Virus record (IMG/VR): IMGVR_UViG_3300029305_005547 | Coordinates: 192,001-256,000 of that record | Length of the DNA: 64,000 nucleotides | Direction: 5' to 3' (one strand) | Origin: a virus | Lineage: Duplodnaviria > Caudoviricetes | Notes under the pieces: model-generated | Told to the model about the DNA's origin: nothing | Seen by the model: the letters and a program-made list of their open reading frames with translations, nothing else | Databases searched by the model: none | Part shown: piece by piece, positions 58,697-62,803 of the stretch | How the letters are laid out: every line of letters starts with the position of its first letter | How positions within the stretch are numbered: position 1 is the stretch's first letter | Position numbers and translations under genes: made by a program

Positions 58697-61171
58697 TTAA
58701 TTATCAAGGTCATCCTGTTTGATTCGATACTCTTCCATCATTTTCTTTCGAGCATTTTTATCTTTATTTGAAGTTCCATGAAGTTTATCAAATACCTTCA
58801 AATCCTTCTTAAGATCTCCAATTGTTAACTGGATAAGTACTCTACTACTAGGATCAAGAGTTGTTCCATACAAATCTTCAGGAGACATTTCTCCAAGTCC
58901 CTTATAACGGGCATCAATGTTAGGAATATACTTACAGTATTTCGTACTAAATTGTCCAATGGACATTTGATTATAATCACCGTCTTTTTCTTTAACAAGT
59001 AGTGCATAACCATATTTACGATATACATCGAACAAATCAACGATCTTATTCATAAATCTATGTCCTAAATTAAGGGATGTATAATGACCCTCTGCAATAC
59101 CGGACATAGTATTAGTATCTTCATAATACTTAATTTCAGGAAACATCACCTGAATAGTTGACATAAAATCTGTAAGTATTTTTTGGTCTTTAAACAGATT
59201 AGCAACATCTGTGTCTCTGGAAATGCCAGGGAACTTATAAACCAAATATGATGCAATTCTTTCAATTAAGAATGCATTGGATTTAAAATGTGCTGCAATT
59301 GAAGTAAGTGTGTCTAAATAATCAACTGTATCAAGAAGATATTCTCTGAACTCATCTTTCTTAAGACTATTATTTCCAAAAGCAACTACTTTTACATCAT
59401 AATTCTTAATAACTTTATCTCTGTAAAGGTCTACGTATTCTTCCTTATTATGGATAAATACAGACTTCTTTCCATCACTGATTTTGTAAAGAGGGGGTAA
59501 AGCTTTATATAACTTACCTGCTTCAACAATACCAGGAAGCGCTGTGATAAAGAATGCTGACATCGCAGACGAAATTCCATGGCCATCAATATCTGCATCT
59601 GTTAAGATAATAATCTTATCAAAATACAGTTTATTGATATCAAAATTCTTTCCTATTCCACAACGCAAAATGTTAACCAATGTTCTCCATTCTCTATTAC
59701 CAGAGTTTGGATCCATTAACTGAACTAATGTCTTCTTATAAGGATTAGCAGTCATACCTCTAACCGCAAAGAATGCCTGAAAATTAGGATTTCTTCTTCT
59801 TGTAGCAGAACCCTTAGCAGAATCACCTTCAACGATAAAAATTTCACGATAATCGTTCTTACCGGTGTTAAGACATCTGTCATAATTAGGAATTTGCTGT
59901 TCCTTTAAAGGAGTCATTGTTTCTTTAGTTGTAGCAACTCTTGCCTTGGTTGCTTCAACACGAGCACGTGCGTTTGTTTTAATAATCTTTATTACTGCAC
60001 GTAATTTCTCAGGATTAGAAGAAAAGAAGTTCTCAATTTCTTCTGTAAATCCATTATAAAGAATAGGTCTTAAAGTTTCAGCTTTAATCTTTTCCTTTAC
60101 ATTTCCTTCGAACTGAACATTTGCATTCGTGTTAAGGAATACAACCATTTTAAGTCCAGTTCTAATATCATTCCAAAGAATATCAAGTTTACCTTTTTCA
60201 TTCTCTGTCATAGAATCTTTTACTGCTTTCTGAATATAGGTACAGAAAGCCTTTTCTGCTGCATCCATATGAACACCACCGGAAATAGTATTAGTGAAGT
60301 TACAATATGAATCATACATAGGATCAATAGAATCGTCGTATGCTAACATAAGTCCGTAATTAGCATTTCTGTGTTTAACTACTGTGTCAACATCCTTGGT
60401 TCTATCCGTATTAATAACTTCTTCATCAAACTCTTCACTTCTTTCGAATGTAATAGGTTTGAGAATAATATTTTGAGAACAGATATCGTACAAAAGACCG
60501 ATTGGATCTCTTTTCTCAAATACGATATGTTTGATCTCTTTCATTCCTTCACGAACTGTAAAATCAAGTCTCATGTTATTTGTGAAGAAATAAGAAATTT
60601 TTGCAATCCACTCTTCAATTGTATCACAAGGAAGATGTGTATTCGGGCCAAGATATTTTCTACTAGGAATCATCTTGGTAATCATCCCGTGTTGTTTACC
60701 TTTCTTATCTATAGGCTTAACTTCATCAAGCACTTTCTTTCCTTGTCGGAAAGAAATAGTATGAGCAGTCTTTTCCTTTTCACGATAAGATGTCATAGTA
60801 AACTCATCAGACAATGCGTTGCAACAGGTAATACCAATTCCAAATTCACCAGCACTACCTTCTCCATCATCACGCATAAATTTTGATCCAGCCTGTATCT
60901 TTGTACAACAAATATCAAGAGGATAATCATCTTCAGGAATACCACGACCGTCGTCCTCTACTATGATTGAATCCTCTAATTTATCAATTATAACACTTAT
61001 GTTACTACCCTCTGACTTAGGGTTCTTACATTCATCTGTACTATTCTGGACAACTTCTTTTGTAAGATGAAATGCACCTTCAGGTCCATAAGACTTAAGG
61101 TATAAGTTTGTTTTCATCTGAATTTTTTCAATGTCATCCTCAATGTACATCATTTTAGAATCTTGAGCCAT
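58697..61171 (-). CDS. gyrB: type IIA topoisomerase (DNA gyrase) subunit B
   Basis: GHKL motifs EVVQNSTDE and DDGRGIP; TOPRIM motifs EGDSA and DADIDG; YKGLGEM. Confidence 0.95.
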   Translation of the reverse strand: MAQDSKMMYIEDDIEKIQMKTNLYLKSYGPEGAFHLTKEVVQNSTDECKNPKSEGSNISVIIDKLEDSIIVEDDGRGIPEDDYPLDICCTKIQAGSKFMRDDGEGSAGEFGIGITCCNALSDEFTMTSYREKEKTAHTISFRQGKKVLDEVKPIDKKGKQHGMITKMIPSRKYLGPNTHLPCDTIEEWIAKISYFFTNNMRLDFTVREGMKEIKHIVFEKRDPIGLLYDICSQNIILKPITFERSEEFDEEVINTDRTKDVDTVVKHRNANYGLMLAYDDSIDPMYDSYCNFTNTISGGVHMDAAEKAFCTYIQKAVKDSMTENEKGKLDILWNDIRTGLKMVVFLNTNANVQFEGNVKEKIKAETLRPILYNGFTEEIENFFSSNPEKLRAVIKIIKTNARARVEATKARVATTKETMTPLKEQQIPNYDRCLNTGKNDYREIFIVEGDSAKGSATRRRNPNFQAFFAVRGMTANPYKKTLVQLMDPNSGNREWRTLVNILRCGIGKNFDINKLYFDKIIILTDADIDGHGISSAMSAFFITALPGIVEAGKLYKALPPLYKISDGKKSVFIHNKEEYVDLYRDKVIKNYDVKVVAFGNNSLKKDEFREYLLDTVDYLDTLTSIAAHFKSNAFLIERIASYLVYKFPGISRDTDVANLFKDQKILTDFMSTIQVMFPEIKYYEDTNTMSGIAEGHYTSLNLGHRFMNKIVDLFDVYRKYGYALLVKEKDGDYNQMSIGQFSTKYCKYIPNIDARYKGLGEMSPEDLYGTTLDPSSRVLIQLTIGDLKKDLKVFDKLHGTSNKDKNARKKMMEEYRIKQDDLDN

Positions 61172-61619: not shown

Positions 61620-61659
61620 CAAAAAATGAGATGAATGGTATTATCATTCATCTCACATT

Positions 61660-62295
61660 TAAAGGATCTTAACTGTAGATATGGAAACAAATGGAGAGTG
61701 TTGAAACCAACACTCTCCACTATTATTTTCCATTAACCGGAATTTTCATTTTATTTCCCATATAAACAGCCATCAGGAAACGAAAGCTGTATGATAGCCA
61801 AACCTAAATCGATGGATTTTATAAACAATTAACATCATCACATATAAAACTTCACATTTAAGTGGATTTATCCTTCTCGAATTAAATCCTACTAACATGT
61901 CACAGCTAAGGTCTTAACATTTGACATTTAACATGTAATCAAATAGCCATCACGTATACCTTCAGGGTATGAGCCCGAATTTTGTCTGATGCTATTAGTA
62001 GTAATTGAAACCCTCTGTTTCAAAACCACCACTCTTATCATGTTATACATGTTAGGATTAACTGTCCTAATGTATATAAACACCAAGCATGTGTTTTATA
62101 TGGTGATAATAAATACTTTCACGTTTATTATCATTACGTGTCATATATTATCGTTATTCGTCTATATAGGAAAGAGTAGGAGATGAAGTTTTGAGGCTCC
62201 ACCTCCCTGTTTCATTTAATTCTTTTCCTCTATCAGTTGTTCGTTAAGAAGGAGATATTCGTTTGTTCATTTTCAAACGACAATACCATCTCAGG
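61660..62295 (+). ncRNA. candidate large (~600 nt) structured non-coding RNA
   Basis: About a dozen stems, long-range pairings, 5'/3' end complementarity, and G-U pairs consistently on the plus strand; no long ORF with an RBS. Confidence 0.6.
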
Positions 62296-62305
62296 TATTA
62301 CGAAA

Positions 62306-62803
62306 TTATCTCCAGCTACCGATAGTAGAGAAATCAGAACCGTTCTTCTTTTTCTTCTTCTTGTTTCTTACGGATTCTGCCTTTTCAGCAATACTTGCTA
62401 CCTTACGATAGTTCTTAGGCAAACACTCCATCATGGAACCAAGTTCAGATGCATAACGAACTGCATCATTACCTGCATTAACGGCAACGCTCAAATACTT
62501 AAGCTGGTTTACGACTTCCTTAGCACCCTTGATCTTATTGATAACTTCTTCCTTATCATAAGGACGACCCTTAAAGGATGCCTGACACATTCTACATGTA
62601 CAAGTCTGCTTTCCATCATTATAGATGGTAGGCTTTACCTTACCGCTCTTATTCAATGTGTGATGAACACACGCACCACGCAGCACTCTTGTCTGCTTCT
62701 TATTCTTACCACGGATCTTACCATTCTTTGTGGTATTCTGTTTGATTACGGAAATAACACTTCCTTCAGTAATCTTGTAATCAGGTCTCTTATTCTTAGC
62801 CAT
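62306..62803 (-). CDS. basic zinc-binding hypothetical protein
   Basis: CVHH...CTCRMC; poly-Lys C-terminus; AAGGAG RBS; early promoter at 62839-62846. Confidence 0.75.
   Translation of the reverse strand: MAKNKRPDYKITEGSVISVIKQNTTKNGKIRGKNKKQTRVLRGACVHHTLNKSGKVKPTIYNDGKQTCTCRMCQASFKGRPYDKEEVINKIKGAKEVVNQLKYLSVAVNAGNDAVRYASELGSMMECLPKNYRKVASIAEKAESVRNKKKKKKNGSDFSTIGSWR

What the first reader, a model, noticed from the sequence alone, without database searches (positions are those of the whole stretch)
61660..62295. Candidate large ornate non-coding RNA (~600 nt) encoded by a jumbo phage
Seen: the largest gene-free stretch in a densely coding window is paired along most of its length. Local stems: 61692-703/61708-19 (12 bp) inside 61681-87/61727-33; 61766-70/61786-90; 61864-70/61883-89; 61942-52/61987-96 enclosing 61956-61/61965-70; 62005-11/62017-23; 62045-58/62064-75; 62101-13/62124-36; 62168-77/62219-29 enclosing 62181-88/62210-17 and 62193-96/62202-05; 62259-65/62274-80. 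Long-range complements: CATATAAAAC 61841-50 with GTTTTATATG 62093-102, and CTAACATGT 61892-900 with ACATGTTAG 62047-55, both competing with local stems. TCTTAAC 61667-73 pairs with GTTAAGA 62243-49, closing a ~585-nt domain. AGCCATCA occurs twice. G-U pairs fall on the plus strand, which lies downstream of a late promoter and a small head-type gene. Known: ROOL and GOLLD are large structured RNAs of this size class in Firmicutes and their phages. I see no group I/II, tmRNA or RNase P signature. Inference: a ROOL-like or new large RNA class, possibly with alternative folds or intermolecular pairing.
Basis: partly seen in the sequence, partly recalled or inferred. Interest (0 to 1): 0.85.

Follow-up and report, generated by a model that had tools for sequence, protein, structure and literature searches.

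The report
Knotted heptad-repeat RNA with tRNA-arm mimics
This gene-free stretch of a rumen jumbo phage encodes a real, roughly 420-base knotted RNA, on the opposite strand from the one first proposed; it belongs to an uncatalogued phage RNA family that also occurs in phage T5, usually beside one protein gene, and here it carries look-alikes of tRNA anticodon arms whose job is unknown.

Summary
The element is a real structured RNA, but on the MINUS strand, and it is not ROOL or GOLLD (no Rfam match). The conserved core is 62175 to 61754 (422 nt). Across 12 rumen jumbo-phage copies the closing helix has 138 Watson-Crick, 16 G-U and no A-C pairs. Two pseudoknots and a 3' helix covary. A track of 7-8-nt repeats precedes the 3' domain, and the variable middle carries tRNA anticodon-arm mimics (17 found, about 1.5 expected; initiator-Met-like and Asn-like in this copy). 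Rumen RNA-seq contigs from two studies contain the core. The same frame follows a PHROG 1491 (DUF6847/DIP1984-like) gene in T5 and other cultured phages. The scan reported that gene-plus-RNA family before, in at least 14 genomes; I took that lead and tested it. What this copy adds: in three related genomes it is the only copy and lies 18-19 kb from the protein gene, which favours action in trans, and it has a conserved 5' T-loop module. Best reading: an RNA scaffold coated by the dimeric partner protein and displaying tRNA-like arms, perhaps as a decoy for tRNA-attacking defences. Binding and function are inferred, not shown.

The parts
62306..62803 (-). Upstream 165-aa gene of unknown function; fixed synteny marker (tubulin gene, two unknown genes, this gene, RNA, gyrB). 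Context, not the family's partner gene.
62179..62296 (-). 5' module of three hairpins: T-loop-like hairpin (62285-62296), hairpin with a near-invariant purine-rich loop (62259-62280), third hairpin (62179-62207). Present in all syntenic copies, absent from the second copy in this genome; possibly a processing signal or separate domain (inferred).
   Evidence: signature found in 11 of 13 copies by pattern and exactly once per genome in three genomes
62157..62175 (-). 5' strand of closing helix P1, followed by invariant GAA; probable 5' end of the core RNA
   Evidence: an RNA contig of a related copy starts two bases before it (record 11; weak)
62151..62155 (-). Pseudoknot 2, 5' strand (pairs with 61783-61779)
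   Evidence: own-partner score 12.9 vs cross-partner 9.0, 0 of 5000 permutations
62104..62140 (-). H-type pseudoknot 1 (62140-62136 with 62124-62120; 62133-62124 with 62113-62104)
   Evidence: same geometry with different sequences picked automatically in 8 of 12 homologues; read directly from the sequence in this copy
62053..62069 (-). Anticodon-arm mimic A: 5-bp stem, 7-nt loop 6/7 identical to tRNA-Asn(GUU) loop (A instead of U33); other copies carry Lys(UUU), Glu(UUC) or Tyr(GUA) loops here
61997..62033 (-). Variable hairpin, not conserved in sequence
61962..61978 (-). Anticodon-arm mimic B: 15/17 identical to the bacterial initiator tRNA-fMet arm
61820..61938 (-). Repeat track of 7-8-nt units (UGUNA core in this lineage), interrupted by one hairpin at 61861-61893; no conserved pairing
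61768..61820 (-). 3' domain: covarying 5-bp helix, bulge, 3-bp helix, internal loop holding the 3' strand of pseudoknot 2, terminal hairpin, invariant GCU
61754..61767 (-). 3' strand of closing helix P1
61685..61719 (-). 12-bp hairpin with U-rich tail, probable first terminator; RNA contigs of two studies stop at 61715
   Evidence: weak hint; the scan listed this hairpin on the plus strand
61620..61656 (-). Second, strong terminator-like hairpin with U tract on the minus strand, at the end of the convergent 79-aa gene

Best explanation
A stable phage non-coding RNA of about 420-490 nt, read on the minus strand behind the tubulin-region genes, cut or started at P1 and ended at the hairpin near 61690. 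P1, two pseudoknots and the 3' helix form a closed frame (shown by covariation). The frame holds a 7-nt-periodic unpaired track on which dimers of the PHROG 1491/DUF6847-like helical protein (G000 272137-272862, 18 kb away) assemble, one unit per repeat (inferred). The variable middle is a cargo slot that in this clade displays tRNA anticodon arms (shown). Most likely use: a protein-stabilised particle that presents tRNA-like surfaces to host tRNA-handling or tRNA-cleaving proteins in a phage with no tRNA genes (inferred). Step odds: real minus-strand RNA 0.95; member of the T5-type gene-plus-RNA family 0.9; binds the partner protein 0.6; arms act as decoys 0.2.
For: Strand and P1. 3' helix: 91% paired, 20 double changes, 0/500 shuffles, slid controls 33-57%. 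Pseudoknots. RNA contigs of four runs from two studies hold the core at 95-100% identity. A model built only from rumen copies gives 8 hits at E<=1 in 64 kb of cultured-phage DNA; 7 lie at the predicted site and strand behind the partner gene (Av-05, LC76P1, JSF12, phiCD211, Achelous, T5, PVP-SE1; E 0.02-0.55). T5.085 is homologous to the partner (26%, E 3e-9) and its downstream RNA folds with z -5.6. Period 7 and 14 in cultured members. G000-G003 each hold one partner gene; G001-G003 have one RNA, 17.7-19.1 kb away. Partner model pLDDT 95, conserved basic positions 32, 37, 40, 72; homodimer score 0.67 against best control 0.00, runs agree in at least 80% of contacts, pLDDT 88; the mark was reached by 20 of 30 solved homodimers and 1 of 23 single chains, and a like structure (3KDQ) is solved, so this may show likeness only. 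Arms: 17 vs 1.6 expected from three genomes, 1.2 in shuffles, 5 on the antisense strand. No tRNA genes in three genomes.
Against: No RNA-protein binding was tested. Single model hits in cultured phages are weak. Contigs give no strand, ends or level and the runs were chosen for holding this stretch. Homologues share ancestry, so arm counts and permutation values are optimistic. Only 2 of 10 cultured members carry an arm (T5, PVP-SE1) and those phages have real tRNAs, so arms cannot be the family's core job. AriB needs more than the anticodon arm (PMC12409363). Folding z-scores alone do not decide the strand (sense better in 6 of 12).
Confidence: 0.5

Rival explanations
1. RNP scaffold as above, but the arms are harmless debris picked up because the family lives in tRNA regions; the particle does something unrelated to tRNA (storage, RNA protection, assembly aid).
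For: Cultured members lie among tRNA genes; most lack arms; the second copy holds a Lys arm plus a T arm like a tRNA fragment; one rumen copy has no scored arm (L056).
Against: Stems vary while 5-bp/7-nt geometry and loops are kept, in two fixed slots, in genomes without tRNA genes; loop identity switches among Lys, Glu, Asn-like, Tyr, Met; T5 has the same A33 variant.
Confidence: 0.25
2. A cis-acting 3' element that stabilises or regulates the mRNA it ends (for example autoregulation of the partner gene).
For: Always directly behind a same-strand gene and before a terminator; a low-depth contig joins the upstream gene to the 5' module.
Against: In this clade it sits behind an unrelated gene 18 kb from the partner gene, which has no family RNA behind it; closed P1 frame; separate contigs match the core.
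Confidence: 0.1
3. ROOL/GOLLD-like RNA-only cage.
For: Large ornate phage RNA from rumen; GOLLD can carry tRNAs in its linker (PMC12286853).
Against: No match to either model; smaller; a long unpaired repeat track; linked protein gene; the palindrome in the track is broken in L003, L004, L025, L056, L058.
Confidence: 0.06
4. DNA element: heptad iteron array (omega/parS-like centromere or origin) near a tubulin gene.
For: 7-bp direct repeats; tubulin gene four genes upstream; omega-type heptads known from my own knowledge.
Against: G-U but no A-C in P1, two covarying pseudoknots, tRNA arms, RNA contigs; T5-like phages have the frame without tubulin context.
Confidence: 0.04
5. VIPR-like gapped guide: variable repeat positions read a target.
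For: Phage protein plus periodic RNA (10.64898/2026.04.26.720920).
Against: Unit is 7-8 nt, not GGY/NN; variable positions are low in complexity; partner model is almost all long helices.
Confidence: 0.03

Closest known systems
ROOL (RF03087) and GOLLD RNAs (PMC12286853)
   Same: Large, multi-helix, pseudoknotted phage RNAs of unknown function; tRNA-region association in cultured relatives; tRNA-derived inserts as in some GOLLD linkers.
   Different: No model match; 422-nt core; periodic unpaired track; linked protein gene; only isolated arms, no whole tRNA.
DUF6847 / DIP1984 (PDB 3KDQ) and PHROG 1491 (T5.085, labelled tail fibre)
   Same: Partner hits phrog_1491 at E 1.6e-24 and DUF6847 weakly (E 8e-4, below cut-off); 3KDQ is the top fold match in both searches (Z 9.1, rmsd 8.2, 152 aligned; Foldseek E 0.11).
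   Different: No function or RNA partner is described; the fold match is moderate for a helical protein; partner is 242 aa against 152.
VIPR systems (bioRxiv 10.64898/2026.04.26.720920)
   Same: Phage protein gene with a tandem-repeat RNA that a protein oligomer could coat.
   Different: 7-8-nt units, closed knotted frame, helical partner; no guide evidence.
Phage tRNAs that counter anticodon nucleases (T5 tRNA-Lys, -Thr, -Asn against PARIS; PMC12409363)
   Same: Arm identities (Lys UUU, Asn GUU-like) overlap PARIS targets; most arm-A copies keep the U36-A-A-U-C40 run at the AriB site.
   Different: No acceptor or D arm, so no decoding; could only act as a decoy.
RAGATH-27 (RF03100)
   Same: Earlier notes say it covers the first 86 nt of some family members.
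   Different: It matches neither copy here nor 13 rumen and 9 cultured-phage loci; I could not confirm the link.

Membership tests
ROOL RNA | Match to Rfam model | tested here: not met
   No hit at gathering score or E<=10; none in 13 homologous loci
ROOL RNA | About 580-660 nt (own knowledge) | tested here: not met
   Conserved core 383-471 nt including short flanks; 422 nt here
ROOL RNA | RNA-only nanocage | not testable with these tools
   needs cryo-EM
GOLLD RNA | Match to Rfam model; many members over 800 nt | tested here: not met
   size from PMC12286853
tRNA / tmRNA | Cloverleaf or tRNA-like domain with acceptor stem | tested here: not met
   ARAGORN finds none in the window or three genomes; only relaxed pseudo-calls inside two other copies
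Group I intron | Catalytic core match | tested here: not met
   The same scan finds the gyrB introns of relatives (95 bits) but nothing in the RNA
Retron / DRT ncRNA | Cognate reverse transcriptase | tested here: not met
   No PF00078 match in three complete genomes, controls ring
VIPR | Alternating GGY/NN repeat | tested here: not met
   Spacing 7 (40x), 8 (18x), UGUNA core
VIPR | RAMP-fold protein | tested here: inconclusive
   Model is mostly long helices; an unlisted family is not excluded by the fold searches
RAGATH-27 | Match to RF03100 | tested here: not met
   Best hits 18.6 bits elsewhere in the genome, cut-off 76.1
RAGATH-27 | Is the 5' part of other members of this family | tested here: inconclusive
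   No RF03100 hit in any genome searched, so no positive control
PHROG 1491-linked heptad-repeat RNA (scan-internal family, includes T5) | P1 followed by GAA, 3' helix and GCU before P1' | tested here: met
PHROG 1491-linked heptad-repeat RNA (scan-internal family, includes T5) | Two pseudoknots | tested here: met
PHROG 1491-linked heptad-repeat RNA (scan-internal family, includes T5) | 7-nt periodic track before the 3' domain | tested here: met
   here split by a hairpin and with a lineage-specific unit
PHROG 1491-linked heptad-repeat RNA (scan-internal family, includes T5) | Partner gene directly upstream | tested here: not met
   Partner gene is 18 kb away; adjacent only to the second copy in this genome
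PHROG 1491-linked heptad-repeat RNA (scan-internal family, includes T5) | Physical RNA-protein complex | not testable with these tools
   needs pull-down or EMSA

The most novel reading that the evidence does not exclude
A phage ribonucleoprotein decoy: a knotted RNA frame coated by a helical protein along a 7-nt register, with exchangeable tRNA anticodon arms that soak up host anticodon nucleases or other tRNA-binding defence proteins, replacing the tRNA genes that this jumbo phage lacks.
Probability: 0.15. Interest if true: 0.9.

Novelty: categorically new. Interest (0 to 1): 0.62.

Why it matters
It is an uncatalogued RNA architecture that recurs from rumen jumbo phages to T5, tied to a protein family of about 800 clusters that databases label tail fibre. 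Because T5 has it, the function can be tested at once in E. coli. This copy shows that RNA and protein gene stay together in a genome even when 18 kb apart, which points to a particle acting in trans. If the arms are decoys, it would be a new RNA-based way to counter tRNA-cleaving immunity. The class 'categorically new' refers to public catalogues and to architecture; function is unproven and the scan has seen the family before.

Tried and rejected
Plus-strand RNA: rejected (A-C mismatches in P1). My first idea that the UGUNA repeats mimic the GUN anticodon loops of Asn/Asp/His/Tyr tRNAs: weakened, since position 32 is mostly A and T5, Vibrio and Salmonella phage tracks use other units. Mimic of the phage late-promoter template (6S-like): the promoter is AACA-N6-TA (118 sense vs 34 antisense) but the repeat spacing does not fit. 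Hammerhead, RNase P, tmRNA, SRP readings of the 5' module: no match by eye or Rfam. BLASTN against cultured phages found nothing; pattern scans of viral and metagenome contigs gave mostly chance hits and one new copy, L050. RAGATH-27 link not reproducible. Paper searches found no description of the RNA, T5.085 or DUF6847 function; the library lacks many subscription papers. Lack of RNA contig cover over the gyrase genes is not used as evidence of expression level. A full-length covariance model was not built (size limit). Three of ten cultured loci (Akh-2, vB_PpS_SYP, pVp-1) gave no model hit although the frame is visible by eye.

Full report
Setting. The window is 192001-256000 of a 279-kb, 32% GC phage contig. 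Relatives come from rumen and gut samples; a tubulin gene lies four genes upstream; the nearest cultured phages by GyrB are AR9, PBS1 and SA1 at about 25% identity. Late promoters look AR9-like. No tRNA, tmRNA or reverse transcriptase gene was found in this or two related complete genomes.

Observation. The listed stems exist, three of them only with bulges, and the region folds far better than shuffles. Rfam has no match. Homologous intergenic regions were collected through the flanking genes and aligned. The conserved core is 62175-61754 on the minus strand. Its closing helix P1 has 138 Watson-Crick, 16 G-U, 0 A-C and 2 other cells in 12 distinct copies. Minus-strand terminators follow at 61719-61685 and 61656-61620.

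Anatomy, 5' to 3'. P1 and invariant GAA. A short segment pairing with the 3' domain (pseudoknot 2; own partners score 12.9, crossed partners 9.0, 0 of 5000 permutations). An H-type pseudoknot 1 with different sequences in each copy. A variable middle. A track of 7-8-nt units with no conserved pairing, the densest such cluster in each genome. A 3' domain whose helix is 91-97% paired with 20 double changes, above all shuffles and slid controls. Upstream lies a separate three-hairpin module, 62296-62179, with a T-loop-like hairpin; it occurs once per genome and is missing from the second copy.

Anticodon arms. Compared with 103 arms from 254 bacterial tRNAs fetched here, the 12 copies hold 17 arm-like hairpins against 1.6 expected from three phage genomes, 1.2 in shuffles (maximum 5 of 300) and 5 on the antisense strand. 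This copy has a 15/17 match to the initiator arm (61978-61962) and an Asn-like arm (62069-62053); the second copy has a perfect Lys(UUU) arm and a T arm. Copies share ancestry and the initiator arm entered the library by my choice of pattern, so the enrichment is somewhat overstated; the switching of loop identity on varying stems is the stronger point.

Expression. Contigs of four rumen or gut RNA runs from two studies cover the core at 95-100% identity: 61715-62153, 61715-62162, 61754-61984 and 61814-62082; one more contig is a different copy that shares only P1. Contigs give no strand, ends or level, so this shows presence in RNA libraries only.

Family. I found a second copy at G000 271746-272122, right behind a 242-aa gene of PHROG 1491. 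T5.085 is a homologue followed by an unannotated RNA with the same frame. Nine other cultured phages with the gene have a 350-630-nt gap behind it, with the same 3' domain and period 7/14. A model built only on rumen copies puts 7 of its 8 hits there, each weak alone. Repeat units differ by lineage. The scan has reported this gene-plus-RNA pair in at least 14 genomes; a later check kept the observation and dropped a bolder reading. The RAGATH-27 link could not be confirmed.

What this copy adds. In G001, G002 and G003 the gyrB-side RNA is the only copy, and the single partner gene lies 17.7-19.1 kb away with no family RNA behind it. Keeping both parts while unlinked fits an RNA and a protein that meet in trans better than a 3' element of the partner's mRNA.

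Partner protein. About 800 clusters at 50% identity; confident, mostly helical model; best fold match DIP1984, 3KDQ, of unknown function, moderate for a helical protein; conserved basic positions near the N-terminal helix; homodimer score 0.67 against best control 0.00, a mark reached by 20 of 30 solved homodimers and 1 of 23 single chains, possibly by likeness to 3KDQ.

Mechanism. Shown: minus-strand frame, two knots, periodic track, arms, family link, partner gene in the same genomes. Inferred: protein dimers load on the track, one per unit, protect the RNA and leave the middle exposed. More speculative: the arms occupy tRNA-attacking host proteins. PARIS cleaves Lys(UUU), Thr(UGU) and Asn(GUU) tRNAs, but needs contacts beyond the arm (PMC12409363), and most cultured members have no arms, so the decoy role is at best a clade-specific cargo.

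Verdict. Real, undescribed in the catalogues and papers I could search, not ROOL or GOLLD, function open and testable in T5. Interest 0.62.

Noticed in passing
L004:2247-2626 minus (G000 271746-272122): Second copy of the RNA, directly behind the partner gene, without the 5' module, with a perfect tRNA-Lys(UUU) arm and a T arm.
   Followed up: yes
L001:6339-7588, L010, L012, L014, L056:1727-2036: gyrB of several relatives is split at the same place by a group I intron, often with an HNH gene; the window's gyrB (58697-61171) is uninterrupted.
   Followed up: partly
window:62179-62296 minus: Three-hairpin module with T-loop-like and purine-rich loops, once per genome, no Rfam match; L025 seems to carry it twice.
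   Followed up: partly
window:61735-61750 minus and matching places in L009, L010, L020, L056, L003: A short conserved A-rich motif ending in CC just after P1; a similar motif stands before some genes. Role unknown.
   Followed up: no
L232:23506-24144 (T5.085) and PHROG 1491: Annotated as tail fibre; the helical DUF6847-like model and tRNA-region context make that label doubtful.
   Followed up: partly
L243/L244/L246:2230-2710: About 480 nt without a gene behind the partner gene in relatives, with no match to the family RNA.
   Followed up: no
L005-L008 (G000 127103-128055, 168493-169194, 147664-148343, 92069-92610): Four other large gene-free gaps in the genome; no match to this family; not examined further.
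   Followed up: no
whole genome G000-G002: AR9-like late promoter motif and an A/T-rich second promoter motif enriched upstream of genes; thymidylate synthase present; no tRNA genes.
   Followed up: partly
window:61380-61619 plus: Acidic 79-aa ORF convergent with the RNA; relatives have 37-63-aa ORFs here; no family match.
   Followed up: partly
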